Both the position numbers and the translations under genes were made by a program. This document shows positions 13,473 to 40,660 of a stretch of DNA of 64,000 nt, one piece after another (positions within the stretch are counted from its first letter, which is position 1; each line of letters opens with the position of its first letter). This DNA comes from a virus (Duplodnaviria; Heunggongvirae; Uroviricota; Caudoviricetes). Under the pieces are notes generated by a model that saw only the letters and a list, made by a program, of their open reading frames with translations, was not told where the DNA came from and ran no database searches. The DNA lies in the IMG/VR virus record IMGVR_UViG_3300047317_000139; one strand, given 5' to 3'.

Positions 13473-13806
13473 GATCGCTGAGCACTTCAACACCACGGTC
13501 GACATCATCGACCAGATGCTCAGCACGCGGTTCAAGCAGGACGCCGACCGACTCACTGGTGAGGACCGGAAGTACCTGCTCGCCCAGGAGCTGATCGCAC
13601 TCTCTCAACTGAAGGCCGCAGTCTGGCCCTCGGCGATGATGGGCGATCCCAAGTCCGTGGACTCCGCGGTCCGGATCATCATGGCTGCGCACAAAGTGGC
13701 TGGTCTGGAGCAGGTCGATCCGGTCGTTCAGAAGAACCTGGTCCTGGTGATGGGGGACAAGGAAGAGGACTACATCGCGGCTCTGAGGGCCACCAACAGC
13801 GACTAG
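13342..13806 (+). CDS. HTH-containing protein (possible terminase small subunit-like or regulator)
   Basis: The helix-turn-helix segment is KLPSEIAEHFNTTVDIIDQML. The protein is basic at the N-terminus and acidic at the C-terminus. Its start (13342 or 13444) overlaps the long C-terminal tail of the WhiB ORF. The function call is speculative. Confidence 0.35.
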   Translation: MDEVTPIESAKRRPRARSAGLAKEIEDKAREAYQMQIAGKLPSEIAEHFNTTVDIIDQMLSTRFKQDADRLTGEDRKYLLAQELIALSQLKAAVWPSAMMGDPKSVDSAVRIIMAAHKVAGLEQVDPVVQKNLVLVMGDKEEDYIAALRATNSD

Positions 13807-13828: not shown

Positions 13829-14224
13829 ATGAGCGCTGCCAACGTCCCGATCGAGATCGACCAGGGCGAGGACTGGACGGGCACGGTCGTCTACACCGAT
13901 GACTTCGACCAGCCCTACAACGTGATCGCTCCGTGCCGGCTGGACATCAAGAACACCACTGGCGCGACCCAGCTCTCACTGTCCACTCCGGACGACGTAG
14001 TGCCTGATGGCACGATCCCGGACATCGGGCTGAGCTCGGAGATCGGGCTCCTGCAGCTGCACATCGAGGACAGTGTGACCGCAGCCCTGATCCCAGGGGT
14101 CTACAAGTACGACCTGTTCGTGACCGTGAACGATGGCAACGAGTACGCCGGGAACCAGGTCCAGCGGATCATCTACGGTTCGGTCACGGTGAACCAGCGC
14201 GTCACTCAGCTAGGGAGTCCGTGA
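13829..14224 (+). CDS. hypothetical virion/fibre-associated protein (131 aa)
   Basis: AGGAG RBS; beta-rich; first gene of the collagen/fibre block. Confidence 0.4.
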   Translation: MSAANVPIEIDQGEDWTGTVVYTDDFDQPYNVIAPCRLDIKNTTGATQLSLSTPDDVVPDGTIPDIGLSSEIGLLQLHIEDSVTAALIPGVYKYDLFVTVNDGNEYAGNQVQRIIYGSVTVNQRVTQLGSP

Positions 14225-14559
14225 TGGAGAGCGCCTGGGGTATCGACCACGGTGAGGTGAGCAAGGGATGGGGTGGAGACGTAGCCAGGAAGACGGCCAA
14301 CGCGGCCACCAAGGCGCGCTTGAAGGCCCCCAAGACTCCTCGCTCGAACGCGAGAAACGACTACTACCAGCGTGGGACGCGGAAGTTCCGGAACCTGACT
14401 GAGCGCAGCCACCGCAACGATGAGACTGGCCAGCACAAGATCTCTCCCATGCGTTCTCGGGCCTTCGCACCGCTGGAGCGGCAGTATCCGGCCTACGGTG
14501 GTCGCACCGGGTCGAACTGGGAGTTCAACGGGAACAAGCGCGTGAGGAAGGCCTTCTGA
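14224..14559 (+). CDS. basic protein carrying the N-terminal MESAWGIDHGEVSK motif (family member 1)
   Basis: ATG at 14224 (or GTG at 14221) overlaps the upstream stop. The protein is very basic and probably disordered. The N-terminal peptide is shared with the proteins at 34933, 40038 and 40340. Confidence 0.5.
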   Translation: MESAWGIDHGEVSKGWGGDVARKTANAATKARLKAPKTPRSNARNDYYQRGTRKFRNLTERSHRNDETGQHKISPMRSRAFAPLERQYPAYGGRTGSNWEFNGNKRVRKAF

Positions 14560-15236
14560 TGGCGAACGTCGTACGGCTGGTCAACGGCGGGTCGATCCAG
14601 GTCCGCACTGGAGTCATCCAGGGAATCGGACCTCAGGGCCCGCGTGGTGTGGCCGGTCCTCAGGGGCCTGATGGTCCGGCTGGTCCGATCGGTGACCCTG
14701 GTCCGCAGGGACAGATCCTGCAGCTCCAGGGGATGAGCTCGGTGTCGTCGAACAACCCACTGTCTGCAGGCGCGGACACGGTGCTGGCCTTCGGCTCGGT
14801 GAGCTACGACGACCTGTCCGCTTTCACCTCCACCTCCAACATCACCCTGACCGCTGCTGGGGACTACCTGCTGTCGACCTGGGTGCGCTTCGACGCAGCC
14901 ACGGCCACCAAGCGCGAGGTGTGGTTCCAGACCGGCGGCTCGACCATCGCCCGGAAGTCGGTGATGGCTGACACCGGGATCTTCTACGTGGACCTGGCGA
15001 TGCCGTTCCGAGCTGCTGGTGGGGAAGTGGTCAATGTGCACGCACTCTCCGCCGTGGCCACGGGCATCTCCATGGGCTCGGTCTCGGTGACCCGTGTTGG
15101 GTCTGGGCCACCGGGACCACAGGGGCCTGTTGGACCTCAGGGACCGATCGGCGCGACTGGCGCTGCTGGTCCGACTGGTCCTGCGGGCACGGCGAACGCC
15201 GGGTTCACCTCGTACGCCCTGCTGCTTCCCCACTAG
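14559..15236 (+). CDS. collagen-like repeat protein (Gly-X-Y tracts at both ends, globular middle)
   Basis: GPQGPRGVAGPQGPDGPAGPIGDPGPQGQ at the N-terminus and GPPGPQGPVGPQGPIGATGAAGPTGPAG at the C-terminus. Confidence 0.6.
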   Translation: MANVVRLVNGGSIQVRTGVIQGIGPQGPRGVAGPQGPDGPAGPIGDPGPQGQILQLQGMSSVSSNNPLSAGADTVLAFGSVSYDDLSAFTSTSNITLTAAGDYLLSTWVRFDAATATKREVWFQTGGSTIARKSVMADTGIFYVDLAMPFRAAGGEVVNVHALSAVATGISMGSVSVTRVGSGPPGPQGPVGPQGPIGATGAAGPTGPAGTANAGFTSYALLLPH

Positions 15237-15245
15237 CATCAGCGC

Positions 15246-18200
15246 ATGACGTTCGACCAGGCGCAGTCTCCGCGTCTGGGCCAGCGCACTCCGGTCGAGT
15301 CCACCTACGTCCGGATGTTCTCCGGGACAGAGATCCCGGAGGCTGCCTGGCCCGGTCAGCTCATCTTCCGCTCGGACGAGAAGATCCTGCAGGTCTACGA
15401 CGGTGAGGCTGAGGCCTGGACCGATGTCGCGGGTGGAGTGGCTGGTCAGCTCACCTTCATCGGTGCCACTCAGCCGGTAGCGCAGTCGGTCGGGGACACC
15501 TGGTACGACTCCGACGACAACTACAAGCTCTACGTCTGGGATGGCAGCTCCTGGAACGTGGCGGTGGCGGGAGCTGTGGCCGGCACGGTCACGGAGTACT
15601 CGGTCAGCTCCAGTGAGACGGTGGCTCCCACCACTGGCTGGTCCACGTCCACGCCTACTCGCGCGCCTGGGACGTTCATCTGGGTGCGCACCACCAGCAC
15701 CCGCATCGACGGTACGAGCACCACCACCAACCCGGCCCTGATGACGGGCAACACGGGAGCGACCGGCCCGCAGGGATCAGCTGGGCCGCAGGGCATCCCA
15801 GGTCCTACCGGACCGAACGGCCAGCCGCTCTACACCTGGACCAAGTACGCGGACACGCCGACCACTGGGATGAGCGACAGCCCGACCGGGAAGACCTACC
15901 TCGGCCTGTCCTACAACCAACCCAACCCCACCGAGTCCAACGTCTACTCCGACTACCAGTGGTCGCTGATCGTGGGACCGCAGGGTGTGCCTGGACCAAC
16001 TGGTGCTGACGGTCAGCCGACCTACACCTGGATCAAGTACGGCACCAGCTCCACGGGCGCTGGGATCAACGACGATCCGACTGGCATGACCTACATGGGC
16101 ATCGCCTACAACAAGACCACGCCCACCGAGTCCACCAACCCCGCGCTGTACGAGTGGAGCCTGATCCAGGGTCCGCCTGGGGCGAACGCGGCCACCATCA
16201 CGCTCACCTCCACCACTCAGATCCTCACCTCTCCCTCGGGCGGAGGTGCGACCACGCCGGCGACTGCCACGGTCACTGGCACTGCGGTGAACACCACGAT
16301 CTCGGTCTGGGACTACAGCGTGGACAGCGGGGCCTTCTCTACCTCACTGCCTGCGGGCGTGTCGCGGGCCGGGAACGTGGTCACCATCACCGGTGCCACG
16401 ATGACCGCCAACACGATCGCGGTCCGGATGGGGAACGGCACGATCGCGGACACGCTCACGGTGGCCAAGGTCTACAACGGTGCGACTGGAGCCACGGGCA
16501 ACCCGGGCAGCACAGGTGGCACGGGTTCACCTGGTGCCGACGCCTACACGGTGCTGCTGACCAACGAGGCGGCGGTCTTCCCGGGCACGGTCACCGCAGC
16601 CATCGCTGGCAGCACCACCAGCAGCGTGCTGGCCTACAAGGGCGCGACCCGCGTCGCTGCCACGATCGGCACGATCACTGGTCAGCAGCCTGGGCTGACC
16701 ACGGCGATCACCAACAACGGGACCACCACTGCGGGGATCACGATCACCGTCACCACCTCGTTGACCCTGGCCGGCACTCTGGTCATCCCGATCACGGTGG
16801 ATGGGATCACCTTCAACAAGCAGTTCGCCTGGACGGTCAGCTTCACTGGCGCTACTGGCAACACCGGAAGTACTGGCCCCACTGGTCCGACTGGCGGCAC
16901 TGGCTCGCCCGGAGTCAGCGTCACCGCGATGACCCCGTACTTCGCCACGGTCACCTACGGAGCAGCAGCTCCCACCCAGCCCACCAACCAGGCGACTCCG
17001 CCTGCGCCCTGGGCCACTCTCGAACCGGCCTACACGGTGGGCACCGAGCTGTACCGCACCGACAAGTCCACTTACTCCGACGCGCACTACAGCTACTCGG
17101 TGGTCACCAAGGTCTCTTCGTACGCCGCTGTCGCCACCGACAACCTGCCGCCCACCAGCTCGCCCACACCCGAGGTGATCGCTGGGATCGGTGCGTTCTT
17201 CCTGCGCTGGCCGGCGATCACCAACCACGACCCGGTGGCCTACGAGGTGCACGTCAGCGACACCTCTGGGTTCACCCCAGACACCACTCCTGGCCCTACC
17301 AGCACCACGCGCTACACCACTACCACAGGGTTCTCGGTCACGGTGCGCAACCTGATCCCGGTCGACCAGGCCACTGGACTGCCCACCGCGTTCAACTACG
17401 GCCAGCCGTACTACTTCAAGATCCTGTCCCGAGACTCTGACGGCCCCTGCTCCGCGGGCGCGGGTGCGCAGGTAACTGGCACGATGCAGCCGATCACCGG
17501 CGAGGACATCACGGTGGGCTCGGTGCTGGCGGAGCACATCGTGGGTGGCACGCTGACCGGAGACCTGTTCAGTGGCCAGGTCTTCTTGGGGTCCACGATC
17601 AGTACCGGCGCGCTGAACCCGGATGGCACGATCTCGGGCGCACGGGTAGAGCTCAGCCCGCTGGGGCTGTTCGTCTACGACCAGACCAACACCCAGATCA
17701 CCGGCTTCCCACTGGACCCGTCTCAGGACGCTTTCGTCAAGCAGGCGCACTTCGACATGCTGTCGGCGGACGTGCAGAACAACTTCACCATGCACGGCAC
17801 CAACAACCAGATCGCCACCGAGGCCGAGCTGACGCTGGCCGCTGGGGTCACGGCTCCGACCGCGCAGCCGACCCTGGCTGCGGTCTACGACACGGTGCAG
17901 CTGGACCGGACCAACGCCTACCCGCCGCACAGCCCAGCGACCGACTACAACCTGGGCACCTTCGCGCTCGATCCCTCCCAGATCACCTCGATCGCCTGGA
18001 TCACTGCCTACGGCGGCTACTGGGCGGTGATCCAGCAGAAGTCCGCCGGGTTCCGGATCTGGCGGTTCAACGCCAATGGCACGGTCAAGGCCAACCCGGG
18101 CACCGGTCGACCCTGGCTCGACGACTGGAACGGGCGGACCAACTGCTTCGTCTGCTACGACCCGGTGGGCGGGGACCTGGTGACCCTGTTCCAGCAGGGC

Positions 18201-21200
18201 ACCGGGTACTTCCTGTTCGGCTACACCCCGACCGGGACCAGCATCATCAACTTCATCCCGGCCAGCTGGATCCTGGACTCGGCCACCCGTCCGCCCGGGC
18301 TCGCGTACGACGCTGCTGCCAGCCGCTACATCATGTTCCAGTCCAACGGCGGCGCGAACGGCACGCTGCACGTACGTCGGTTCCACGGTGTGGTCGGGTC
18401 GGGCGGACTGTGGGGCACAGCAGTCTCGGACAGCACTACGCAGAGCGCTGCTGGTGGAGGCCTGTCCCAGCGGCTGCACGGGCTGGTCTACGGCACCCAG
18501 GTCGGTGGGGCGAACCGGTACGTCATCGACGCCGACACCTACCTGCAGAACTACATCTTCGACACCTCGTGGGTGCAGAAGAACACCGATGGTGCCTACG
18601 AGCAGTGGTCCAAGCCGGCTGCTGCTCGCGGGTTCTGCCACAACGGCTCCCAGTTCGTCTCGGTGGACGCGACCGGGAAGATCACCTTCTACACGAACTG
18701 GAACTGGCCCCAGTCCAACTCGACCATCTACGTCGGGGCCTCGGCCATCGCCACCAGGCCCGCTCCGGACTACGAGACTCCGGTTGGCGCACTGGCCAGC
18801 ATCAGCCAGGCGCGACGGGCCAAGCTGATGATCACGATGCCCGAGACCGGGGACACGGGGGCGACCGCCTCTCCGAACCAGTGGGGTTTGTACTACCAGC
18901 GCAGCGCCACCGCTCTCACGGGCGGTTCGGGGATGAAGCAGATCGGGCTGATCGGTGCTGCATCAACTCCGTCCAGCGTCACGATCACTGCTGACCCCAC
19001 CGGAGCCGCGCCGGCGTTCGGCCTGGACGGGAAGCCCGACGCGAACTACTCCAGCTTCCCGGGCGCGAACCCGGCGCAGCTGACCAGCTACGCCTTCGAC
19101 GGCGTAGGCCCGCTCATCCAGCTGAACGGGGATGGCTCAGGACGGCTGGGATCGGCGTACTGGGACACCAACGGGAACTGGACCGGGATCGGCAGCGGTG
19201 GTGCGACCACGCTGGATACCTACACCCTCGCTGCCACAGCGGGCCTGACGCTGACCAATACCGACACCGACATCCCCGGGATGTCCACGTCGGTATCCGT
19301 GGGAGGGCCCTCGGATCGGTTCCTGGTGGTAGCCGCGTTCGACGCGCGTACTGCGGGAGCAGGCGACAACTCGGTGATGTCAGGGAAGCTGGTGGTCGAC
19401 GGCACGGCCCAGGTTGCGGTAGCGACCTTCAACAGCGGTAGCACGGCCAACCTTCGTGCCACGGTGCACCAGAGCTGGGTGATCAGCGGGATGGCCGCGG
19501 GCAACCACACGTTCAAGGCTCAGGCCTCGCAGGTCAACAGTGGCACGATCACCCTCAGCACGGTCCACACCAGGATGGTGATCGTCAAGCTGGTCGGCCC
19601 ACCCGGACCGAAGGGCGACAAGGGCGACACCGGAGCTACCGGATCTCAGGGCGCGACCGGAGCTACTGGTCCGACTGGAGCCACTGGTGGCCAGGGACCG
19701 ATCGGTAACACCGGACCACAGGGTGCTACTGGAGCTCAGGGGCCACAGGGTGCGACTGGAGCTCAGGGCATCCAGGGTCCGACTGGTAACACCGGTGCTC
19801 AGGGCACGGCTGGTGAGAAGTGGTTCTCGGGTGCCGGCGCTCCCTCGGGCGCGACCGGGGCAGTCAACGACTGGGACCTGGACACCACTGCCGGCGACAT
19901 CTACGAGAAGACCGGGGCCTCGACCTGGACCCTGCGCGGGAACATCAAGGGCCCACAGGGCACCACGGGAGCGACCGGTAGCCAGGGCATCCAGGGACCC
20001 ATCGGCAACACCGGTGCCACGGGTCAGGCCGAGGGCTGGTGGGGTGGTGCTGGAGCTCCGTCTGGAGCCACGGGAGCGGTCGGGGACTGGTACCTGAACC
20101 AGACCAACGGGGATGTCTACGAGAAGACGGGAGCGAGCGCCTGGACGCTGCGCACCAACATCACCGGCCCCGCTGGTCCTACCGGTGCTCAGGGCCCGCC
20201 AGGAGGCTCCTCAGCGGGTTCTGTGAACGTGGTGGACGAGACCACGCTGGTGGTCTCCAACGCCACCCAGATGTCTTTCAAGGGCACCGGCGTCACTGCG
20301 ACTGCTGGAGTGGCTGGCGAGGCCGTGGTCACCATCCCCACTCCTGCTGCGCTGCCTCCGAACGGGGCTGCAGGTGGAGACCTGGGTGGGACCTACCCGA
20401 ACCCCACGGTGCCTGCCCTGACGACCAAGGTGAACACCTCGGCGGTGGGCTCGGCCAGCGGTGTCGCCTCCCTGGACGGCAGCTCCAAGGTCCCGATCGC
20501 TCAGATCCCCACCGGACAGACCTCGACTACGGTCCCGCTCGGCAACGACACCAGGTTCACTGACGCCCGGACTCCGACCGCGCACGCGGCCAGCCACGGC
20601 TCTGGGCAGGCAGACGCGGTTCTGCTGAACGCCAACCAGATCAGTGCCGGGATCATGGGCGTGAACCGGCTGGGCAACAACCCGCAGGTCACCACCTACC
20701 TGAGAGCGGCTGGAACCTCGGGCGCTCCTGACTGGGTGTCGACGGCCACGGCGAAGACCGATCTGGGAGCTGGAGCAGCCAGCGGCCTGGCCACTCTGGA
20801 CGCCACTACCCGAGTACCGCCGGCGCAGCTCCCGCTGATGGGTGGCGGGAACCTGCTGGTCAACTCCAACTTCATCGAGACCACAGGGCTAGCGGCCAGC
20901 AACTTCGGCAGTGCTGCGATCACCCAGGAGACCACCACCACCTGGCGCAACGGGCGCGCGATGCGGGTCACCTCGTCCAACGCCAGCAACGCCTTCGGGA
21001 TCGGCAGCTACGCAGTGGTCAGCGAGACGGTCGCAGCTGGGAACCGGTTCGCTCCGAACACCGCCTACACGTTCACGATGTGGGTCTACAACCCGACTGC
21101 GAGTGGCACTGCGCAGGTCGCCATCATCACCACCGGCGCTGGGATCACCACCAACCCGAGTGCTACTACCACGGTCAAAGACACCTGGACTCGGCTGTCG

Positions 21201-22112
21201 GTCTCGTTCATCACCGCTGCCAGTGGCACCTTCACACTGCGGTCCGGCAGTGAGGCCAACCCCGCAGTCGGGCTGTACTACATCGTCGGTGCCTGGCAGG
21301 CCGAGCTCGGTGAGGTCCCGACCTCGTACGCCCCCAGGGCCACTGAGCTGGTCGTGGGATCCGGACTGGCGCTGACCGGGAGCACGCTCTCGATCGGGGT
21401 CGGTGGAGTCACCTCGAACATGATCAACGATGGCGAGATCGTGGCAGCTGACATCAACGCCTCGCTGAAGTCGCCAGCGGCTGGTGTCGAGGGGCTGCGC
21501 TCGCTGGGCACCGGATCCACCCAGGCAGCACCAGGGAACGACTCACGGTTCGTGCCGACCGGCTGCATGATGATGTGGCCGACCGCCACCCCGCCGGCTG
21601 GCTGGATCCTCTGTGATGGTGGATCTACGGCGAGCTACCCCGCGCTGGCAGCTGTGGTCGGCGCGAACGTTCCGGACATGCGAGACAAGTTCGCACAAGG
21701 TGTTGGACCGCTGAACGCGCTCAACGCTACGGGTGGCCAGGCTGGTATGCCTGGTCACACCCACGACATCGGGGACCACTACCACAACGCGACCTCCTCC
21801 CCGGGGTTTCCGAACTCCTCGACCGGTGCCCTGAACGCCAACAACGACGCCGGTGCCGTGCACGTCCACCCCATCGACATCGGCAACACGACCGGCTCTT
21901 CCACGTCTTCTCTGCAGAAGACCAACGGGACGATCGCCAACACGGGCGCGACCGGCCCGTACAACCCGACCAACTCCGGCGGTCACACCCACGCCATCAG
22001 CGGGCGCACGGCGTCCTCGCAGATGCAGAACACCGGAAGCACTGGTAGCGGCAACACATCCAACGAGAACCGGCCCCCGTTCCTGACCGTCAACTTCATC
22101 ATCAAGACGTGA
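15246..22112 (+). CDS. giant tail fibre protein (2288 aa) with collagen-like triple-helix tracts, internal tandem domain duplications and a C-terminal phage tail-collar domain
   Basis: The C-terminus MMWPTATPPAGWILCDGGSTASYPALAAVVGANVPDMRDKF...GHTHD... matches the phage tail-collar fold. A long G-X-Y tract runs from about 19600 to 20240 (GPPGPKGDKGDTGATGSQGATGATG...). There are repeated ~55-60-aa modules. Confidence 0.8.
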   Translation: MTFDQAQSPRLGQRTPVESTYVRMFSGTEIPEAAWPGQLIFRSDEKILQVYDGEAEAWTDVAGGVAGQLTFIGATQPVAQSVGDTWYDSDDNYKLYVWDGSSWNVAVAGAVAGTVTEYSVSSSETVAPTTGWSTSTPTRAPGTFIWVRTTSTRIDGTSTTTNPALMTGNTGATGPQGSAGPQGIPGPTGPNGQPLYTWTKYADTPTTGMSDSPTGKTYLGLSYNQPNPTESNVYSDYQWSLIVGPQGVPGPTGADGQPTYTWIKYGTSSTGAGINDDPTGMTYMGIAYNKTTPTESTNPALYEWSLIQGPPGANAATITLTSTTQILTSPSGGGATTPATATVTGTAVNTTISVWDYSVDSGAFSTSLPAGVSRAGNVVTITGATMTANTIAVRMGNGTIADTLTVAKVYNGATGATGNPGSTGGTGSPGADAYTVLLTNEAAVFPGTVTAAIAGSTTSSVLAYKGATRVAATIGTITGQQPGLTTAITNNGTTTAGITITVTTSLTLAGTLVIPITVDGITFNKQFAWTVSFTGATGNTGSTGPTGPTGGTGSPGVSVTAMTPYFATVTYGAAAPTQPTNQATPPAPWATLEPAYTVGTELYRTDKSTYSDAHYSYSVVTKVSSYAAVATDNLPPTSSPTPEVIAGIGAFFLRWPAITNHDPVAYEVHVSDTSGFTPDTTPGPTSTTRYTTTTGFSVTVRNLIPVDQATGLPTAFNYGQPYYFKILSRDSDGPCSAGAGAQVTGTMQPITGEDITVGSVLAEHIVGGTLTGDLFSGQVFLGSTISTGALNPDGTISGARVELSPLGLFVYDQTNTQITGFPLDPSQDAFVKQAHFDMLSADVQNNFTMHGTNNQIATEAELTLAAGVTAPTAQPTLAAVYDTVQLDRTNAYPPHSPATDYNLGTFALDPSQITSIAWITAYGGYWAVIQQKSAGFRIWRFNANGTVKANPGTGRPWLDDWNGRTNCFVCYDPVGGDLVTLFQQGTGYFLFGYTPTGTSIINFIPASWILDSATRPPGLAYDAAASRYIMFQSNGGANGTLHVRRFHGVVGSGGLWGTAVSDSTTQSAAGGGLSQRLHGLVYGTQVGGANRYVIDADTYLQNYIFDTSWVQKNTDGAYEQWSKPAAARGFCHNGSQFVSVDATGKITFYTNWNWPQSNSTIYVGASAIATRPAPDYETPVGALASISQARRAKLMITMPETGDTGATASPNQWGLYYQRSATALTGGSGMKQIGLIGAASTPSSVTITADPTGAAPAFGLDGKPDANYSSFPGANPAQLTSYAFDGVGPLIQLNGDGSGRLGSAYWDTNGNWTGIGSGGATTLDTYTLAATAGLTLTNTDTDIPGMSTSVSVGGPSDRFLVVAAFDARTAGAGDNSVMSGKLVVDGTAQVAVATFNSGSTANLRATVHQSWVISGMAAGNHTFKAQASQVNSGTITLSTVHTRMVIVKLVGPPGPKGDKGDTGATGSQGATGATGPTGATGGQGPIGNTGPQGATGAQGPQGATGAQGIQGPTGNTGAQGTAGEKWFSGAGAPSGATGAVNDWDLDTTAGDIYEKTGASTWTLRGNIKGPQGTTGATGSQGIQGPIGNTGATGQAEGWWGGAGAPSGATGAVGDWYLNQTNGDVYEKTGASAWTLRTNITGPAGPTGAQGPPGGSSAGSVNVVDETTLVVSNATQMSFKGTGVTATAGVAGEAVVTIPTPAALPPNGAAGGDLGGTYPNPTVPALTTKVNTSAVGSASGVASLDGSSKVPIAQIPTGQTSTTVPLGNDTRFTDARTPTAHAASHGSGQADAVLLNANQISAGIMGVNRLGNNPQVTTYLRAAGTSGAPDWVSTATAKTDLGAGAASGLATLDATTRVPPAQLPLMGGGNLLVNSNFIETTGLAASNFGSAAITQETTTTWRNGRAMRVTSSNASNAFGIGSYAVVSETVAAGNRFAPNTAYTFTMWVYNPTASGTAQVAIITTGAGITTNPSATTTVKDTWTRLSVSFITAASGTFTLRSGSEANPAVGLYYIVGAWQAELGEVPTSYAPRATELVVGSGLALTGSTLSIGVGGVTSNMINDGEIVAADINASLKSPAAGVEGLRSLGTGSTQAAPGNDSRFVPTGCMMMWPTATPPAGWILCDGGSTASYPALAAVVGANVPDMRDKFAQGVGPLNALNATGGQAGMPGHTHDIGDHYHNATSSPGFPNSSTGALNANNDAGAVHVHPIDIGNTTGSSTSSLQKTNGTIANTGATGPYNPTNSGGHTHAISGRTASSQMQNTGSTGSGNTSNENRPPFLTVNFIIKT

Positions 22113-33940: not shown

Positions 33941-34936
33941 ATGAGCGACATCCACGAGCTGCTGGCCACGGACGAGACGTTCCGCGAGGTCGCTGATCTG
34001 CTGTTCGGTGGCGGAGGAGATGAGCTCATCTCCAAGATCAGCCCGACTCAGTCTGATCTGGCCACTCACGACAAGCGCAAGCGCATGACCACTGCGGGTC
34101 TGAGCGCTATCGGAGCCACGGCTGGTGCAGCTGGTCTGGGTCTGGCCGGCAAGGAGACCTACCACGGGATCAAGAACGCCCCGAAGGGCCTGTCGGCGAC
34201 CGGAAAGCTCGTGCACGCGGCGAAGACCAAGAAGCTCGCCACTGCGCTGGTCCCGCTGGAGGTGGCAGGCCTGGGTGGTGAGCTGATGGCCACCAAGATC
34301 CTGCACGGAGACACCAAGAAGAAGATCCCGGTCTCCAAGGCCTCCGACCTGCTGCTGAACAACGCCAGCGAGATCCCCACCTCCAAGGGCAAGCTGACCC
34401 GGGCTGTGATCTCCAGCCCCAAGGTCCGGAAGAAGGGGGTGGAGTACACCAAGAAGGGCGCGGGTGTGCTGAAGCGAGTCCCGGACAAGCTGGTCACCCA
34501 CCACAAGGTCGAGAAGGCCGACACCGAGATCGACGTGGTCTGGGAGGGCGACTTCGCCAAGGCCGACGCTGACAAGCAGCAGGTCTTCGGCTGGGCCAGC
34601 GTGGTAGAGGTGGACGGCCAGCCGGTGGTGGACCTGCAGGGCGACTACATCTCCACCGACGAGATGGAGAAGGCTGGCTACCAGTACGTGATGAAGTCCC
34701 GGAAGGGTGGCGACATGCACCTGAGGGACAACTGGGCTCCGATCCAGAAGTCGGAGATGATCGAGAGCTTCATCGTCACCCCCGAGAAGCGGGACGCGAT
34801 GGGCCTGCCGGACTCGGTGCCGACCGGCTGGTGGGTCGGGTTCCAGGTCCAGGACCAGCAGGTCTGGAGCGACATCAAGGACGGGAAGCGGACCGGGTTC
34901 TCCATCCACGGTCACGGGAAGCGGAGCCCGGCATGA
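33941..34936 (+). CDS. XkdF-like (peptidase S78-2-like) putative prohead protease with a Lys-rich N-terminal extension
   Basis: The C-terminal QQVFGWASVVEVDGQPVVDLQGDYISTDEMEKAGYQYV...GDMHLRD...GWWVGFQVQDQQVWSDIKDGKRTGFSIHGHG resembles the XkdF family pattern. Confidence 0.5.
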   Translation: MSDIHELLATDETFREVADLLFGGGGDELISKISPTQSDLATHDKRKRMTTAGLSAIGATAGAAGLGLAGKETYHGIKNAPKGLSATGKLVHAAKTKKLATALVPLEVAGLGGELMATKILHGDTKKKIPVSKASDLLLNNASEIPTSKGKLTRAVISSPKVRKKGVEYTKKGAGVLKRVPDKLVTHHKVEKADTEIDVVWEGDFAKADADKQQVFGWASVVEVDGQPVVDLQGDYISTDEMEKAGYQYVMKSRKGGDMHLRDNWAPIQKSEMIESFIVTPEKRDAMGLPDSVPTGWWVGFQVQDQQVWSDIKDGKRTGFSIHGHGKRSPA

Positions 34937-36291
34937 GCCTCTCAGCCTTCGGGATCGACCACGGTGGCATCTCCAAGGCCGAGGACCCGAACCGGAAGAA
35001 GCAGGTCGCTGTAGCTGCCGGCGGCACTGCTGCGGCGGGCGGAGTCGGACTGGCTGCGACCAAGATCCCTGAGCACTCCCACTACGACAAGAAGACCCGG
35101 AAGTACCTGCACTCGCTCCCCGCGGGCGAGCACGAAGTGCCGACCTCGATGCTGTCGACGCGACCCAGGAAGCTCGGTGCTCGGAAGCAGCAGGCTCCGT
35201 ACGTGGCAGCGATGGCGCAGGAGCGTCCGCTGGAGTCCTTCCACGCCTCTCCGGTCCCGGTCACCCGATACAAGGGCAAGGGCCACCCCACCATCCAGCG
35301 GGACAACGCGCACACGGTGATGGCCAACGCGATGAAGGGCCGCACCACCAAGATCAAGATCGAGGATGCTCCTGGCTACCGCCCGAACCGGAGGACTGGC
35401 GAAGAGCTGGTCAGACGCGGGCAGATGCGGTATCAGCAGCGCCGGCTGAAGCTGCACACCAACCTCTCGGAGAAGGCGATCGAGGGGATCCGAGGGAAGT
35501 ACACCGACAAGTCCCGAGCGGCCAACACGACCAAGCGCCCGCACGGGGTGGTAGAGGACACCCTGAAGTACAACCCGAAGAAGTACTCGGTGGCCCGAGC
35601 GGTGGGACGAGCCGGGAACCTCGCGGCAGTGGTGAAGAGGGATGATCGCCGGGGGCGAGACACAGCCGCCGGCGTCACCGGGGCGGCTGGGGTAGGAGCG
35701 CTGGCATCTACGCCGGTGCGGCGCTCAGCGGCCAAGGTGGATGTCTCCGGCGGCTCGATGAGCGCGTCTGACGCCAAGAAGGTCGTCTCTCCTGGATACC
35801 GCCCTGGGAACAAGCGCGCGATCCGGACGATGGCCGCGAACCTGGGTCACCTGGAGAACAAGCCCACCACGGTGGTCAGGTACAAGGGCGGACACGTGGT
35901 CCCCTTCGACGGGAACCACCGAGCCTCTGCTCGGGTCGCACGCGGGGACGCACGAGTCCCGGTGAACGTGGTCGAGGGCGGCGAGCGCCCTGCGGTCTCC
36001 GTGGCTCGGAACGCCTACCACGTCGCTCAGCAGAAGGTGCACCAGTCGCGGCTGGACCGGGACGTGTTCAAGCCCAACTCCAAGATCGGCCGGCACGCTG
36101 GTGAGACCAAGGCCTACTCTGCGATCGCCAACGCATCTCCGCTCCGGTCCGGGAAGCGAGTCGCGATCGGGTCCACCAAGCTAGGTTCGGGCCCGACCAA
36201 GGCAGTGTTGAGGACCAAGCAGGGTCTGGCGCTGGGTGCCAGTGCCGCGCTACTGGGTACCTCTGCTCACCTGCACAGGAAGAAGAGCTGA
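34933..36291 (+). CDS. very basic (Lys/Arg-rich) protein, 452 aa, with the N-terminal MSLSAFGIDHGGISK motif (family member 2); putative internal virion/DNA-associated protein
   Basis: ATGA overlap with the upstream gene. Strongly basic composition. The shared N-terminal motif is present. The table ORF 34831..36291 starts upstream inside the previous gene. Confidence 0.5.
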   Translation: MSLSAFGIDHGGISKAEDPNRKKQVAVAAGGTAAAGGVGLAATKIPEHSHYDKKTRKYLHSLPAGEHEVPTSMLSTRPRKLGARKQQAPYVAAMAQERPLESFHASPVPVTRYKGKGHPTIQRDNAHTVMANAMKGRTTKIKIEDAPGYRPNRRTGEELVRRGQMRYQQRRLKLHTNLSEKAIEGIRGKYTDKSRAANTTKRPHGVVEDTLKYNPKKYSVARAVGRAGNLAAVVKRDDRRGRDTAAGVTGAAGVGALASTPVRRSAAKVDVSGGSMSASDAKKVVSPGYRPGNKRAIRTMAANLGHLENKPTTVVRYKGGHVVPFDGNHRASARVARGDARVPVNVVEGGERPAVSVARNAYHVAQQKVHQSRLDRDVFKPNSKIGRHAGETKAYSAIANASPLRSGKRVAIGSTKLGSGPTKAVLRTKQGLALGASAALLGTSAHLHRKKS

Positions 36292-37166
36292 TGAAGCCAC
36301 TCATGAGCGACGCGGAGATGCGTCGTCGGCAGAAGCTGCAGGGCAAGATCGGCCGGACCACCTCCACGCTGGGCCTGTCCGGAGTGGCGCTGACCGGTGC
36401 TGCGATCGCGACCAAGAAGAAGCCAGGCGCGCTGAAGGCAGTCACCAAGGTCCCAGGACTCAGCCGAGTCAGCCATGGTGGTCTGAAGAACGCCGCCTTC
36501 CACACCTCGATCGCGGCTGGCGGCATCGGCGGTGTAGGAGGGTTCAACCAGGCAGCGATCTACTCGGCAGAGTCCAGGAAGCGCAAGGCAGCGACTGTGG
36601 TGAAGAAGGAGTTCGGCATGGAGATGGGCTACTACGGGGAGGAAGGCCGTCCCCTCACTCACCAGCAGATCGAGGCCGAGATCGAGAAGGCCTGGACGCC
36701 ATCGGCCTCCAACTTCGACTCCGAGCGCAGCCGGCACCGACGTACTGGTGCCTACCAGGCCGGGGCCATGGCAGCTGCCGGTGCTGGTGGTGCGTACGCC
36801 GCCCGGCACGGGGTGAAGGCCGTACAGCAGGGCAAGAAGATCCAGTCGATCCCGGACTCGGCTCAGATCAAGACGGTCGAGGAGACGGTCAGGCCGAAGG
36901 CAGGCAAGGAGTTCACCCGGAACGTGAAGCGGGCCGGGAAGACGTTCCGGGCTCTCGACGCGGACGTGGTCGGGCGGACCCTGAAGCATGGGGGCAAGGC
37001 CGGGCTCGGGCTGGCGGCGGTCGGTGGCGCGGCTGCCACTCACTCCGCGATCAACCGAAAGAAGAGCGGTTCCTGGCAGTCGTACGCCAAGCGCGATGCC
37101 ACATCAGCGTTCGGAGTCGATCACAGCGACAACCCGAATGGACAGCACCGTGAGACTGAGAACTAG
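36291..37166 (+). CDS. Gly/Ala/Lys-rich head-module protein with a C-terminal ...SAFGVDHSDNP motif-like segment
   Basis: ORF table. Gly-rich and low in complexity. Near its C-terminus there is a copy of the SAFG(V)DH peptide. Confidence 0.45.
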   Translation: MKPLMSDAEMRRRQKLQGKIGRTTSTLGLSGVALTGAAIATKKKPGALKAVTKVPGLSRVSHGGLKNAAFHTSIAAGGIGGVGGFNQAAIYSAESRKRKAATVVKKEFGMEMGYYGEEGRPLTHQQIEAEIEKAWTPSASNFDSERSRHRRTGAYQAGAMAAAGAGGAYAARHGVKAVQQGKKIQSIPDSAQIKTVEETVRPKAGKEFTRNVKRAGKTFRALDADVVGRTLKHGGKAGLGLAAVGGAAATHSAINRKKSGSWQSYAKRDATSAFGVDHSDNPNGQHRETEN

Positions 37167-37177: not shown

Positions 37178-37996
37178 ATGCCACGACCGAAGAACAACCT
37201 GACTGACATGGAGATCGACGAGATCTCCACCGTCGACAAGGCCGCGAACCAGCACTCACGGTTCGTCATCGCGAAGCGGGCTCCCGAGGAGGAAGAGATG
37301 CCCAAGCTCTACAACCAGGAGGGCCAGCCCCTCGACGAGGACCAGCTGGAGTTCGGCGACATCGTGTACGACGACACAGGCGCTGCCTACGAGTACGTCG
37401 AGAACGAGGTCGAGGACGAAGCTGTCGAGAAGGAAGAGGACCAGCCAGTGCCCGAGCTCGCAGGAGTGGGCAAGTCGGCGTTCTTCGAGAAGCAGGCCAA
37501 GGCCGGCAGCTTCAGCGCATCGGTGATGGAGGAGCTCAGCAAGGCGTTCTCCGACAAGGACCGTGACGCGGTCATCGCCAAGGCGCTCGGTCGGGTCGAG
37601 GAGCTGGAGAAGGCTCAGGCCGAGTCCACGAAGATCGCCAAGGCCGAGCGCGACCTGCGCCTGACCCGTGAGTACATCTCCAAGGCGGCGGAGTACAACC
37701 TCCCGATCCCCGCCCAGGAGCTCGGCCCGGTGCTCTACCGGATGGCCGAGACCATGAGCTTCGAGGACTGCTCGGTGATCGCCAAGGCTCTGGAGACGGC
37801 GGGCGAGATCATCTTCGAGGAGAAGGGCTACACGGGCGGCGGCGACAACTCCGACGTGTACTCCCAGGTCGAGGCTCACGCCTACGAGGCCTTCGGCAAG
37901 GCCGAGAACTTCGACGCTGTCTCAGCCATCAACACGGTGTTCGACCAGAATCCGGACGCCTACGACGAGTACCTGCGCTCGCAGCAGGCCCGGTAG
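37178..37996 (+). CDS. scaffolding protein (acidic, helical/coiled-coil)
   Basis: Acidic and Glu/Ala-rich, immediately upstream of the decoration-like and capsid genes. Confidence 0.5.
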   Translation: MPRPKNNLTDMEIDEISTVDKAANQHSRFVIAKRAPEEEEMPKLYNQEGQPLDEDQLEFGDIVYDDTGAAYEYVENEVEDEAVEKEEDQPVPELAGVGKSAFFEKQAKAGSFSASVMEELSKAFSDKDRDAVIAKALGRVEELEKAQAESTKIAKAERDLRLTREYISKAAEYNLPIPAQELGPVLYRMAETMSFEDCSVIAKALETAGEIIFEEKGYTGGGDNSDVYSQVEAHAYEAFGKAENFDAVSAINTVFDQNPDAYDEYLRSQQAR

Positions 37997-38426: not shown

Positions 38427-39425
38427 ATGCCGAACCCCACTCAGAGCGATCTCCACGTCAACGTGCCGCTGACCAACGTCAGCGTTGCGTACATGCAGGA
38501 CAAGGCGCAGTTCATCGCGGACAAGGTCTTCCCGCGTGTGCCAGTGCAGAAGCAGAGCGATCTGTACTGGAAGTACTCCAAGTCCGACTGGCGCAGGACC
38601 GACGCGCAGAAGCGCGCCCCCGGCACCGAGACGGCTGGAGTCGGCTGGAAGGTCGACACGGGGCAGTACTTCTGCGAGGTCTGGGGTGTCCACAAGGACA
38701 TCGACGACCAGGTCCGCGCGAACGCCGACTCGAACTGGAGGCTCGACTCTGACGCCACCACGTTCGTCACCAACCAGCTCCTGCTCCGGCGGGACCTGGA
38801 CTGGAACGCCAAGTTCTTCACCACCGGCCAGTGGGGTACCGACCTCGCCGGCGTGACCGGGACGGTCGGCGCAGGGCAGTTCCTGCAGTGGAGCGACCCG
38901 GCCTCGGACCCGATCGTGCAGTTCTCCGATCTGCAGACGAACTTCGTGGAGCAGTCAGGCCGCAAGGCCAACACGCTGGTCCTCGGTGCTCGGACGATCA
39001 CTCAGCTGAAGAACCACCCGGACATCATCGACCGCATCAAGTACACCCAGCGTGGTGTGGTGACCACCGACCTCCTCGCGTCGCTCTTCGACGTCGAGCG
39101 GATCCTGGTCAGCTACGCGACGGTGACCGGTGTGGCCGAGCTGAACGACGCCAAGGCGCAGGACGCTGCCGCGACGTACAGCTTCATGTCCAACTCCAAG
39201 TCGGCGCTGCTGGTCTACACCCCCAGCTCGCCGTCCCTGATGACCCCGGCCGGCGGCTACACCTTCACCTGGAACGGGTACCTGGCTGGCAACAGCTACG
39301 GGATCCGGATGAAGAACTTCCGGATGGAGCCGATCGCTGCGGACCGCATCGAGGGCGAGATGACCTACGACATGCGGGTGGTCGCCAAGGACATGGGCAT
39401 CTTCCTGTCCAACGCGGTGGCGTAG
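38427..39425 (+). CDS. major capsid protein
   Basis: 332 aa, preceded by the scaffold gene and followed by a strong hairpin, as expected for a highly expressed capsid gene. Confidence 0.6.
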   Translation: MPNPTQSDLHVNVPLTNVSVAYMQDKAQFIADKVFPRVPVQKQSDLYWKYSKSDWRRTDAQKRAPGTETAGVGWKVDTGQYFCEVWGVHKDIDDQVRANADSNWRLDSDATTFVTNQLLLRRDLDWNAKFFTTGQWGTDLAGVTGTVGAGQFLQWSDPASDPIVQFSDLQTNFVEQSGRKANTLVLGARTITQLKNHPDIIDRIKYTQRGVVTTDLLASLFDVERILVSYATVTGVAELNDAKAQDAAATYSFMSNSKSALLVYTPSSPSLMTPAGGYTFTWNGYLAGNSYGIRMKNFRMEPIAADRIEGEMTYDMRVVAKDMGIFLSNAVA

Positions 39426-39483: not shown

Positions 39484-40038
39484 GTGCAGATGGCCATCCA
39501 GCTGCTGAAGAACGACGGGATCTCCTTCGTCGCGGCCAAGAACTTCACGTACGCCGGCGAGGAGTACGTGATGGGGCAGGAGTTCCCCCAGGAGAAGGCC
39601 AAGAACATCGAGACGCTCGTCCGCGCTCGGTTCGTGATCCCGGTCCTCGAAGAGGGCGCGCTGCGTCCTCGGCACTGGCACACCCATGTCCGCACCCGCG
39701 AGGAGGCGGAGGAGTACCTGAACCGGGACCGGGTGCAGCTGGTCTGGCCTGCGGAGCCGGACACCCAGGTAGACCTGGAGGTGCTCACCAACCCCGAGCT
39801 CACTCCTGAGCCGGAGGGAGATGGCGAGGATGCCCTGGCTCCTGCTGAAGATTCTGTGGAAGAGCCTCCTGCTGACCCTGAGCCGCCGGAGAGCCTCGAA
39901 GAGACCTACGACCCGGCTGAGCACAACGTAGACGCGGTCCTGGAGTACCTGGACGAGCATCCTGAGCAGCGGGACGCGGTCCTGGCGATGGAACGCGCAG
40001 GACGCGGTCGCAAGGGGCTCCTGGGAGACGATGAGTGA
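39484..40038 (+). CDS. hypothetical head-module protein (184 aa, acidic Pro/Glu-rich C-terminus)
   Basis: ORF table; GGAG RBS. Confidence 0.45.
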   Translation: MQMAIQLLKNDGISFVAAKNFTYAGEEYVMGQEFPQEKAKNIETLVRARFVIPVLEEGALRPRHWHTHVRTREEAEEYLNRDRVQLVWPAEPDTQVDLEVLTNPELTPEPEGDGEDALAPAEDSVEEPPADPEPPESLEETYDPAEHNVDAVLEYLDEHPEQRDAVLAMERAGRGRKGLLGDDE

Positions 40039-40340
40039 TGGAGAGCGCATTCGGCGTTGACCACGGCTCCGAGGAGATCTCGAAGCTGGGACTGAAGCCG
40101 CCTGGCATGGGCACGCTGAAGCCGATGGTCCAAGGGATGCAGAGCGCGTTCAAGATGGGCGCTCAGGGCGTGCACGGCCCAGCAGCTTCGGTTGGTGCTG
40201 GGCGCGCGATGGGCGCTGGTGCGATGACCCGCAAGGTCGGCCAGTTCGGGATGAAGAACAAGAAGCCGCTGGCCATCGGCGCAGGAGCAGCTGGCGCTGG
40301 TGCTGCTGGAGGCATGCTCACGAGCCGTAGGCGGTTCTGA
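40038..40340 (+). CDS. small basic Gly/Ala-rich protein with the N-terminal MESAFGVDHGSEEISK motif (family member 3)
   Basis: ATG at 40038 (or GTG at 40035) overlaps the upstream stop. The shared N-terminal peptide is present. Confidence 0.5.
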   Translation: MESAFGVDHGSEEISKLGLKPPGMGTLKPMVQGMQSAFKMGAQGVHGPAASVGAGRAMGAGAMTRKVGQFGMKNKKPLAIGAGAAGAGAAGGMLTSRRRF

Positions 40341-40660
40341 TGCAGAGCGCGTGGGGGATCGAGCACGGGGACGCGGTCTCCAAGATGCGCCTGCCCCGTC
40401 GACTGGTGGGTCCGAAGCCACCCCCTCCGGGGGCCCAGCGAGCTCCGTCTCGGGCCACTCAGATCAAGGGCAAGCTGAACCGCCTGGGAGAGAAGGACAT
40501 CTCCGTCAAGGAGCTGGGCGCGAGCGCGGGACGTGGCGTGGGCAACGTCGGTAGGTTCATGCAGAACCGTCCCGGTCTCACCGGTACTGCACTGGTGGGA
40601 GGAGGCGGCGCGGCGGGCTACAAGCTCGTGAACGACAGGTCCAGGAAGAAGACGCGCTGA
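40340..40660 (+). CDS. small basic Gly-rich protein with the N-terminal MQSAWGIEHGDAVSK motif (family member 4)
   Basis: Tandem paralogue of the preceding gene. ATG overlaps the upstream TGA. Confidence 0.5.
   Translation: MQSAWGIEHGDAVSKMRLPRRLVGPKPPPPGAQRAPSRATQIKGKLNRLGEKDISVKELGASAGRGVGNVGRFMQNRPGLTGTALVGGGGAAGYKLVNDRSRKKTR

What the first reader, a model, noticed from the sequence alone, without database searches (positions are those of the whole stretch)
14221..14559. A member of the SAWGIDHG family sits outside the head module, next to the collagen-like fibre genes
Three family members are in the head module (34.9-40.7 kb). This one (112 aa, very basic) is encoded between a small structural gene and the collagen-like proteins, about 20 kb away. 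Either the motif is not strictly a capsid-targeting signal (it could instead be a common interaction or processing tag), or this gene was displaced by rearrangement of the fibre/lysis block.
Basis: inference. Interest (0 to 1): 0.5.

Follow-up and report, generated by a model that had tools for sequence, protein, structure and literature searches.

The report
Mobile tagged basic-protein gene cassette
The small gene beside the fibre genes is real and is one of many movable genes in a group of uncultured soil phages; each encodes a very basic protein with the same 14-residue leader, which most likely loads the protein into the phage head, so where the gene sits says little about where the protein goes.

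Summary
ORF 14224-14559 (111 aa from the ATG, pI 11) starts with MESAWGIDHGEVSK. The same leader opens three head-module genes (34933, 40038, 40340). I found a fifth, C-terminal copy in the basic protein 36291-37166.

The gene is under strong purifying selection (dN/dS 0.054) and its product is predicted to be disordered.

The leader M-x-S-A-F/W-G-V/I-D/E-H-G-x(0-3)-[IVF]-[SEA]-K heads at least 200 different, almost always very basic proteins in more than 110 IMG/VR stretches. There are at least 4-10 per genome in most contigs sampled at several places. It is absent from 185,579 prokaryotic genomes, from PHROGs, and from the two cultured relatives examined.

Orthologues of this gene occupy four different slots:
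- next to the fibre genes
- after the major capsid protein
- after the portal
- fused after the protease

The fibre-side slot is an optional hotspot. It is filled in 16 of 28 loci sampled without reference to the tag, with varying cargo, and it is empty in the closest relative.

Best reading (inferred, not shown): the leader is a docking peptide plus a cleavable hydrophobic-small-Lys linker, working like the T4 capsid targeting sequence. T4 internal-protein genes are likewise kept at two separate loci.

The parts
14224..14559 (+). M1: tagged cargo gene, 111 aa, pI 10.97, predicted disordered. This is the finding.
   Evidence: ORF and sequence. Ten homologues at 58-100% identity. dN/dS 0.054 against L006. 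AF2 pLDDT 54, pTM 0.14.
14224..14265 (+). Leader MESAWGIDHGEVSK: docking part SAWGIDHG plus linker VSK.
   Evidence: Logo from 202 unique tagged ORFs. Codon analysis shows selection at the peptide level.
14544..14561 (+). 3' junction: GAGGAAGG (Shine-Dalgarno-like, inside the last codons) followed by the TGATG stop/start overlap with the collagen gene.
   Evidence: The same AGGAAG...stop/ATG ending is kept by M1 orthologues in every slot.
13829..14224 (+). w13829: conserved acidic 131-aa protein (phrog_1084, function unknown). Both of its flanks are the cassette hotspot.
14559..15236 (+). Collagen-like 225-aa protein downstream of M1.
   Evidence: PHROG tail-fibre / collagen-like hits.
15246..22112 (+). 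2288-aa collagen-like fibre with a C-terminal Phage Tail Collar domain.
   Evidence: Pfam Collagen and Collar, 1.1e-09.
33941..34936 (+). Prohead protease: XkdF-type Peptidase_S78_2 domain at aa 205-328, plus an N-terminal ~200 aa not covered by matches in cultured phages.
   Evidence: Pfam 7.9e-18. tblastn matches cover only the C-terminal part, from aa 176 onward.
34933..36291 (+). M2: tagged 452-aa basic protein. Its start overlaps the protease stop.
36291..37166 (+). Basic 291-aa protein with no N-terminal tag but a C-terminal motif: ...SYAK-RDAT-SAFGVDHS... (motif at nt 37104-37124).
   Evidence: The C-terminal SAFG[VI][DN]H motif is seen in 12 of 17 homologues, each time preceded by [YV]-[ASE]-K.
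37178..37996 (+). Acidic 272-aa candidate scaffolding protein (pI 4.35).
   Evidence: Position between protease and cement/MCP; composition. Inference.
38427..39425 (+). Major capsid protein (lambda gpE-like).
   Evidence: tblastn against annotated capsid genes, best 46% identity.
40038..40340 (+). M3: tagged 100-aa basic Gly/Ala-rich protein.
40340..40660 (+). M4: tagged 106-aa basic protein.

Best explanation
ORF 14224-14559 is a real late gene of an uncultured actinobacterial siphophage. It encodes a small, strongly basic, disordered cargo protein fused to a 14-residue leader.

The leader has two parts. SA[FW]G[VI][DE]HG is a docking peptide that binds a procapsid component; candidates are the scaffold, the inner face of the capsid protein, the portal, or the clade-specific N-domain of the protease. 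A short spacer then ends in hydrophobic-small-Lys ([IVF][SEA]K). There the XkdF-type prohead protease would cut, releasing the cargo inside the head to sit on the DNA and probably leave with it at infection.

Tagged genes behave as plug-in cassettes. They start on the stop codon of the gene before, and M1 carries a ribosome-binding site for the gene after. They are gained, lost, swapped and fused at gene boundaries throughout the late structural gene string. The flanks of w13829, beside the fibre genes, are one optional hotspot. The position of this copy therefore reflects cassette turnover, not a fibre-related function.

Shown: the gene, the family, its mobility and the two-part conservation. 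Inferred: docking, cleavage, packaging and ejection.
For: **Real gene.**
- GC3 is 0.81 in frame.
- Ten homologues exist.
- dN/dS is 0.054 with pS 0.70 against an orthologue sitting in a different slot.

**One leader on unrelated cargo.**
- 202 unique tagged ORFs fall into 55 single-linkage cargo clusters. The largest (141 sequences) is probably joined through low-complexity Gly/Ala-rich segments.
- 244 of 252 complete ORFs have pI above 9.5. Median cargo net charge is +14.
- Contigs sampled at several places carry at least 2-10 tagged genes, most of them 4 or more.

**Selection is on the peptide.** The conserved Ser uses both AGY (135) and TCN (62) codons, and Gly uses all four codons. The four window copies differ at wobble positions.

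**Two-part design.**
- The [IVF][SEA]K element was not in the search pattern, yet it follows the His at +4 to +7 in 185 of 202 ORFs.
- In the w36291 family the motif sits at the C-terminus and is preceded by [YV][ASE]K. One cut after Lys would separate docking peptide from cargo in both orientations.
- Fused versions keep the linker in front of the M1 domain (RVSK|GWG, RVNK|GWG, GLAK|GWG, MTVSK|GWG) while losing SAFGVDHG.

**Head context.**
- An XkdF-type prohead protease is encoded directly upstream of M2.
- Most tagged genes lie between portal, protease, capsid and neck genes.
- No tagged gene in that census was placed next to a replication-module gene.

**Mobility.**
- M1 orthologues occupy four slots.
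- Homology starts at the ATG and ends at the stop.
- M1 identity does not track flank identity: 85% against portal 64% and 1168-aa protein 42% in L006; 79% against flanks 52% and 47% in L003.
- The slot is empty in the closest relative.

**Precedent.**
- T4 Ip1-3 share only an N-terminal leader and sit at two loci in a hotspot (PMC12373910).
- The T4 CTS has separate targeting and processing residues (PMC9026906).
- T4 internal proteins are diverse defence proteins united only by the CTS (PMC3012670).
Against: - There is no experimental evidence of any kind. These phages are uncultured, and no virion proteome or N-terminal sequence exists.
- The leader has no sequence similarity to any characterised targeting peptide.
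- The specificity of XkdF-type proteases is unknown to me, so the cut after Lys is a guess from conservation alone.
- About 8% of tagged genes lie beside fibre genes and a few lie after the tape measure gene. A broader virion-assembly role is not excluded.
- 72 of 197 cargos have uncharged stretches of 18 or more residues that could be membrane-active.
- The receptor for the docking peptide is not identified.
Confidence: 0.55

Rival explanations
1. The leader is a general assembly or interaction tag rather than a capsid-interior signal. It would bind a chaperone or some virion part such as neck, tail lumen or fibre, and this copy acts on the adjacent collagen-like fibres.
For: - Tagged genes recur beside the fibre genes: 9 in the w13829|collagen slot and 5-7 in the w13300|w13829 slot, out of 194.
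- 16 of 28 loci sampled independently of the tag carry one there.
- L003 has tagged genes on both sides of the collagen gene.
- Others lie among neck genes and after the tape measure gene.
Against: - Cargo in the fibre slot is not conserved although the fibre genes are.
- The closest relative, and 12 of 28 relatives overall, have no gene there yet keep the fibre genes.
- The same M1 cargo sits after the capsid, portal or protease genes in other phages.
- The cargos are uniformly polycationic and mostly disordered or Gly/Ala-rich. That suits DNA contact better than fibre assembly.
Confidence: 0.15
2. The leader is a pro-sequence or sorting signal unrelated to virions. It might keep toxic basic or membrane-active proteins inactive until cleaved, or direct them to the membrane, for example in lysis or superinfection exclusion.
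For: - 72 of 197 cargos have long uncharged Gly/Ala-rich stretches.
- The fibre-side slot is about 8 kb upstream of the putative lysis genes.
- Some cargos carry HExxH motifs that might need a pro-peptide.
Against: - M1 itself has no hydrophobic segment.
- The leader is acidic and polar and resembles no Sec, Tat or lipoprotein signal (sequence, own knowledge).
- The motif also works at a C-terminus.
- Most tagged genes are interleaved with protease, scaffold, capsid and neck genes, not with lysis genes.
Confidence: 0.1
3. One reading: a one-off rearrangement of the fibre/lysis block carried a head-module gene to this place, with no general meaning.
For: - Five orthologous loci (L002, L005, L006, L120, L121), plus probably L122, place the M1 cargo among head genes.
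- The closest relative of this region lacks the gene here.
Against: - The block RuvC-WhiB-w13300-w13829-collagen-fibre-lysis is collinear in every relative examined.
- Only a 335-bp gene-sized unit differs.
- The same M1-in-fibre-slot arrangement occurs in at least three diverged lineages (79% and 61% identity).
- The slot holds other tagged cargos in many genomes.
Confidence: 0.1
4. The conserved 5' end is a DNA- or RNA-level element, such as a recombination site or a translational coupling signal, rather than a functional peptide.
For: - All four window copies start on the stop codon of the preceding gene.
- Cassette boundaries coincide with the start codon.
Against: - Serine is encoded by two unconnected codon families, glycine by all four codons, and Val/Ile by seven codons.
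- Nucleotide identity of the leaders is only moderate and the wobble positions vary.
- The motif is also conserved at a C-terminus.
- The leader DNA may still help recombination, but that cannot explain the conservation.
Confidence: 0.03

Closest known systems
Phage T4 capsid targeting sequence (CTS) of internal proteins IPI/IPII/IPIII (and Alt), cleaved by prohead protease gp21
   Same: - A short N-terminal leader is the only thing shared by otherwise unrelated, basic, non-core proteins.
- Targeting and processing determinants are separate.
- There are several cargos per genome.
- The genes lie at separate, hypervariable loci.

Sources: PMC9026906, PMC3012670, PMC12373910.
   Different: - There is no sequence similarity. 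The T4 leader is about 10 residues and is cut after Glu in L/I-x-E (own knowledge); here the putative cut is after Lys.
- The protease family differs: XkdF/S78_2 rather than T4 gp21.
- This is a siphovirus with a lambda-E-like capsid protein and an actinobacterial host.
- The motif is also used at a C-terminus with a mirrored linker.
- Packaging is not demonstrated.
Phage P1 DarB N-terminal capsid targeting signal (Dar anti-restriction system)
   Same: An N-terminal signal suffices to load a protein into the capsid for delivery to the host (PMC9024508).
   Different: P1 has one large enzyme cargo and a stepwise Dar assembly. It has no family of many small cargos with a shared leader, and there is no sequence relation.
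Encapsulin cargo-loading peptides
   Same: These are short terminal docking peptides that bind the interior of an HK97-fold shell. They can sit at either terminus and are portable between cargos (own knowledge).
   Different: - Encapsulins are not viruses and package no DNA.
- Their peptides are not removed by a maturation protease.
- The sequences are unrelated.
- Not tested here.
Ejection/inner-body proteins of giant phages (SPN3US, phiKZ-like) processed by the prohead protease
   Same: Many head-internal proteins carry pro-peptides that are removed by the prohead protease and are then ejected (PMC7411985, PMC10052503, abstracts).
   Different: These are jumbo myoviruses with a T4-gp21-like protease whose cleavage motif ends in Glu (own knowledge). 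No single shared leader has been described for them. The cargos are large.

Membership tests
SAFG[VI][DE]HG-[IV]SK leader family of this phage clade (defined here) | Motif S-A-[FW]-G-[VI]-[DE]-H-G starting at residue 3-4 of the protein | tested here: met
   MESAWGIDHG. The motif offset is 4 in 179 of 202 family members.
SAFG[VI][DE]HG-[IV]SK leader family of this phage clade (defined here) | [IVF]-[SEA]-K ending 4-7 residues after the His | tested here: met
   The sequence is ...DHG-E-VSK, with K at +5. This is the modal spacing, seen in 98 of 202.
SAFG[VI][DE]HG-[IV]SK leader family of this phage clade (defined here) | Strongly basic cargo encoded in the late structural gene string | tested here: met
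   pI 10.97. The gene is co-directional with, and overlaps, its late-gene neighbours.
T4-type CTS / internal proteins | Short N-terminal leader shared by otherwise unrelated proteins | tested here: met
   55 single-linkage cargo clusters share only the leader.
T4-type CTS / internal proteins | Sequence relation to the T4 CTS and an L/I-x-E cleavage site | tested here: not met
   The leader is SAFGVDHG..[IV]SK, with no L/I-x-E. The T4 consensus is from PMC9026906 and own knowledge.
T4-type CTS / internal proteins | Cleavage by a T4 gp21-type prohead protease | tested here: not met
   The only recognisable head protease is XkdF-type Peptidase_S78_2. Cleavage itself cannot be tested here.
T4-type CTS / internal proteins | Physical presence inside the capsid and ejection with the DNA | not testable with these tools
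   Needs virion proteomics or reporter fusions.
T4-type CTS / internal proteins | Genes dispersed at hypervariable loci | tested here: met
   Slot census, sampling independent of the tag, and four slots for one cargo. For T4: PMC12373910.
Tail-fibre assembly / fibre-associated accessory protein | Conserved linkage and co-occurrence with the fibre genes | tested here: not met
   Twelve of 28 relatives keep w13829-collagen-fibre with nothing in the slot, including the closest relative. M1 orthologues lie among head genes elsewhere.
Tail-fibre assembly / fibre-associated accessory protein | Homology to known fibre chaperones or fibre proteins | tested here: not met
   No Pfam hit, one weak PHROG hit of unknown function, and no PDB hit.

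The most novel reading that the evidence does not exclude
A clade of uncultured actinobacterial siphophages has its own protein-loading system. It consists of a portable docking peptide (SAFGVDHG) with a protease-cleavable Lys linker, usable at either protein terminus. It fills the capsid with a rapidly changing set of polycationic proteins and some enzymes, such as the HExxH cargos, for co-injection with the DNA. The system arose independently of the T4 CTS and is served by an XkdF-type protease. M1 is one interchangeable cargo.
Probability: 0.45. Interest if true: 0.7.

Novelty: new variant of a known kind. Interest (0 to 1): 0.55.

Why it matters
If the leader really loads proteins into heads, it would extend the leader-directed internal-protein strategy known from T4 and P1. 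The strategy would then apply to siphoviruses of Gram-positive, high-GC hosts. The leader would be new, could act at either protein terminus, and would be served by a different protease.

It would also flag several hundred unannotated small phage proteins as candidate injected effectors, such as anti-defence factors, DNA-condensing proteins and zincin-like enzymes. The 14-residue tag could be tried for packaging foreign proteins into actinophage capsids.

For annotation, the lesson is that these genes are cassettes. Their position in the genome does not predict where their products go.

Tried and rejected
**Searches that found nothing**
- megablast of the region and tblastn of M1 and M2 against 50,697 cultured phage records: no match.
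- PHROGs with five leader-plus-30-aa peptides: no family.
- Pfam, PHROGs and PDB for M1: nothing beyond one weak PHROG of unknown function.
- AlphaFold2 on the 10-sequence alignment: pLDDT 54 and pTM 0.14, so no fold search was justified.
- Profile of the four leaders against the 5.8-billion-protein set: only 5 weak hits because of the word prefilter, so uninformative.
- Tag pattern in prokaryotic genomes: chance hits only, so no prophages and no host assignment that way. The host phylum comes from the WhiB gene instead.
- Promoter and terminator scan of 11-26 kb: no more than in shuffled sequence.
- Cultured phages sharing the head type (RDJL Phi 1, RHph_TM3_3_9, Kovu): no shared N-terminal motif. 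RDJL Phi 1 and RHph_TM3_3_9 also have no comparably basic (pI ~11) small proteins among their head genes.

**Ideas considered and dropped**
- DNA repeat or recombination signal: codon analysis argues against it.
- RiPP-type leader: the cargos are 60-800 aa and there are no modification enzymes nearby.
- Staphylococcal Prp/L27-type leader: different motif and a Firmicute-specific system (own knowledge).
- Sec or Tat signal: no hydrophobic core and no RR motif.
- Fibre chaperone: see the membership test.

Full report
**1. What is at the coordinates**

The + strand carries an ORF from 14221 (GTG) or 14224 (ATG) to 14559. The ATG overlaps the stop of the upstream gene (TGATG). The ORF's own stop overlaps the ATG of the downstream collagen-like gene.

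From the ATG the product is 111 aa with pI 10.97. GC3 is 0.81 in this frame and 0.54 in the other two. It begins MESAWGIDHGEVSK.

Three further ORFs open the same way:
- 34933-36291: MSLSAFGIDHGGISK, 452 aa
- 40038-40340: MESAFGVDHGSEEISK, 100 aa
- 40340-40660: MQSAWGIEHGDAVSK, 106 aa

All four start on the stop codon of the preceding gene. They are the four most basic of 58 gene products in the window (pI 10.97-11.73; median of the others 5.8).

**2. The genome around it**

The window is a 64% GC siphophage. The host is an actinobacterium, judged from a WhiB gene at 12858.

Gene order on the + strand:
- RuvC (12503), WhiB, w13300, w13829, M1
- collagen-like protein (14559), then a 2288-aa collagen-like fibre with a Tail Collar domain (15246)
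- putative lysis genes
- large terminase (25072), Mu-type portal (26596), an unassigned 1168-aa protein (28457), a MuF-like protein (31963)
- XkdF-type prohead protease (33941), M2, a basic 291-aa protein (36291), an acidic scaffold candidate (37178)
- cement (38012), lambda-E-like capsid protein (38427), an acidic 184-aa protein (39484), M3, M4
- neck and tail genes

The nearest cultured phages share only 40-46% capsid identity. No terminator or promoter signal above chance separates M1 from the head genes.

**3. The gene is real**

Ten homologues at 58-100% identity exist in metagenomes, with 40 invariant positions. Against the orthologue in L006, which sits in a different genomic slot, dN/dS is 0.054 with pS 0.70.

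AlphaFold2 on the alignment gives pLDDT 54 and pTM 0.14, so the protein is largely disordered. A profile search of 1.84 billion cluster representatives finds only 10 relatives. No Pfam or PDB relative exists.

**4. The leader is a large family**

In the fetched loci I found 260 tagged ORFs, of which 202 are unique.
- Median length is 113 aa.
- 244 of 252 complete ORFs have pI above 9.5.
- After the leader is removed they fall into 55 single-linkage clusters.

The logo is M-x-S-A-F(W)-G-V/I-D/E-H-G, then 0-3 residues, then [IVF]-[SEA]-K. After that, similarity ends. The [IVF][SEA]K element was not part of the search pattern.

Contigs sampled at several places carry at least 2-10 tagged genes, most of them 4 or more.

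As a control, the same pattern found only 20 isolated hits in 596 Gb of prokaryotic genomes. None showed the downstream linker, and nearly all lay well inside longer open frames rather than at a plausible gene start.

Conservation is at the peptide level. Ser is encoded by AGY 135 times and TCN 62 times, and Gly by all four codons.

The leader is absent from PHROGs. M1 and M2 have no match in 50,697 phage records. Two cultured phages with the same head type, RDJL Phi 1 and RHph_TM3_3_9, have neither a shared N-terminal motif nor comparably basic small proteins among their head genes.

**5. A fifth, C-terminal copy and a mirrored linker**

The basic 291-aa protein encoded at 36291-37166 has no N-terminal tag. 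It ends ...SWQSYAKRDATSAFGVDHSDNPNGQHRETEN.

Twelve of 17 homologues in other loci show SAFG[VI][DN]H at or near the C-terminus, each time preceded within 0-4 residues by [YV]-[ASE]-K.

So the arrangement is docking motif - spacer - hydrophobic-small-Lys - cargo at N-termini, and cargo - hydrophobic-small-Lys - spacer - docking motif at C-termini. A cut after the Lys would free the cargo in both cases.

Fused proteins point the same way. The M1 domain inside longer proteins is always preceded by such a triplet:
- RVSK|GWG, RVNK|GWG and GLAK|GWG
- MTVSK|GWG at the start of an untagged fusion in L122

P0017 keeps 'SYEEISK' after the M1 domain, which matches the linker part of an M3-type leader.

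**6. Where the gene sits in relatives**

M1 orthologues occupy four slots:
- Between w13829 and the collagen gene: this window, L003 (79%), and L004 (61%). L124 has the same arrangement and is probably the same phage as L004.
- Just after the capsid gene: L002 (68%), L005 (59%).
- Between portal and the 1168-aa gene: L006 (85%), L121 (55%, with a decayed leader).
- As an untagged N-terminal domain of a longer protein after the protease: L120, L122.

Nucleotide homology between slots begins at the ATG and ends at the stop. The last codons (GAGGAAGG...TGATG) supply a ribosome-binding site for whatever gene follows.

M1 identity does not follow flank identity. In L006, M1 is 85% identical against portal 64% and the 1168-aa protein 42%. 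In L003, M1 is 79% against flanks of 52% and 47%. This indicates exchange of the cassette between genomes.

**7. The fibre-side slot is an optional hotspot**

A census of 194 tagged genes places them as follows:

| Slot | Tagged genes |
|---|---|
| 184-aa protein / first neck gene | 56 |
| w41178 / w41591 (neck) | 21 |
| portal / 1168-aa protein | 18 |
| w40660 / w41178 | 15 |
| capsid protein / 184-aa protein | 12 |
| w13829 / collagen gene | 9 |
| terminase / portal | 8 |
| w13300 / w13829 | 5-7 |
| after the protease | 5 |

No tagged gene in this census was placed next to a replication-module gene.

To remove ascertainment bias I fetched 28 loci through w13829 itself.
- Sixteen carry 1-3 tagged genes on one or both sides of w13829, with different cargos.
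- Twelve carry none.
- None of these 28 carries the M1 cargo.

In the closest relative, L147 (w13829 94%, collagen protein 89%), the stop of w13829 is followed after 5 nt by the ATG of the collagen gene. M1 in this window is therefore a clean gene-sized insertion. The surrounding block is collinear in all relatives.

**8. Interpretation**

The data fit a portable docking peptide with a cleavable linker. It would load polycationic proteins into the procapsid, where an XkdF-type protease is available. The cargo genes would behave as cassettes.

This is how the T4 CTS works:
- a 10-residue leader with separate targeting and processing positions (PMC9026906)
- diverse cargos united only by the leader (PMC3012670)
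- genes at two separate hotspot loci (PMC12373910)

P1 DarB is a second precedent (PMC9024508).

Membership in the T4 family is not claimed, because the sequence, the presumed cleavage residue and the protease family all differ. Docking, cleavage, packaging and ejection are all inferred.

The main rival is a broader assembly tag that includes a fibre role. It is weakened by three observations: the cargo in the fibre slot is not conserved, the slot is empty in many relatives, and the same cargo appears among head genes elsewhere. A membrane or pro-toxin role and a DNA-level signal are less likely.

**9.

The refutation test gave a mixed result: five orthologous loci (L002, L005, L006, L120, L121), plus probably L122, place the gene among head genes, while at least three lineages keep it by the fibres.

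The 'rearrangement' reading is right about mobility but wrong about scale. 'Not strictly capsid-targeting' remains open, but gene position is not evidence for it.

**10. Novelty and score**

This is a new variant of a known kind. It is a CTS-like leader system with a new motif, usable at either terminus, in uncultured actinobacterial siphophages. I found no description of the motif in the literature library.

Interest is 0.55. A specialist would find it notable and directly testable, but the mechanism is unproven, and the particular point raised (gene position) has an ordinary explanation.

Noticed in passing
window 36291-37166 (motif at 37104-37124): An untagged basic 291-aa protein carries the docking motif at its C-terminus (SYAK-RDAT-SAFGVDHS). 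Twelve of 17 homologues show the same arrangement. In L111 this protein is fused to the M2 orthologue as an 827-aa product ending SAFGIVHD.
   Followed up: yes
L048 4721-5677(-), L042 6775-7554(-), L025 4903-5667, L071 1862-2626, L009 461-1108, L118 4614-5213(-), L059 1055-1849: Seven tagged cargos contain HExxH. In six of them REE[AG]R[AV]D follows about 25-30 residues later, which resembles a zincin-type metallopeptidase signature. No Pfam family matches. They may be packaged enzymes.
   Followed up: partly
L049 3502-4098: One tagged cargo carries Pfam DUF6321 (E 7.8e-25). It is the only tagged protein tested that has a curated domain.
   Followed up: no
window 33941-34936: The XkdF-type protease domain occupies only residues 205-328. 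The N-terminal ~200 residues have no match in cultured relatives, whose proteases are 132-245 aa. This domain is a candidate receptor for the leader, untested.
   Followed up: partly
window 28457-31963: A 1168-aa ORF between the portal and the MuF-like gene has no Pfam or PHROG hit. It is conserved at 33-42% identity in relatives (L006, L120).
   Followed up: no
window 14544-14561 and the equivalent ends in L002-L006: The last codons of M1 (..V-R-K-A-F) spell GAGGAAGG 6 nt before the overlapping stop/start. This is a built-in ribosome-binding site for the next gene, and it is kept in every slot the cassette occupies.
   Followed up: yes
window 12503-13806: The RuvC, WhiB-like and w13300 ORFs overlap by 128 and 173 nt as listed. 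The true starts of the WhiB-like gene (12858) and w13300 are probably internal.
   Followed up: no
window 15246-22112: There is a very long (2288 aa) fibre protein with several collagen-repeat blocks and a C-terminal Tail Collar domain. It is encoded upstream of the terminase rather than with the tail genes. Its length varies from 343 to more than 2300 aa among relatives.
   Followed up: partly
window 39484-40038: An acidic 184-aa protein (pI 4.35, 24% Asp+Glu) is conserved after the capsid gene even in distant cultured relatives (RDJL gp75, RHph EVB39_048). The commonest slot for tagged basic genes is directly after it (56 of 194).
   Followed up: partly
P0016, P0017, P0019 (metagenomic proteins); L088 2845-3657; L071 1862-2626: Neighbouring cassettes are sometimes fused into one ORF. 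Internal leaders then decay (KSAFGVLHK in L071) or lose the docking part while keeping the Lys linker. This suggests polyproteins that are cut into modules.
   Followed up: partly
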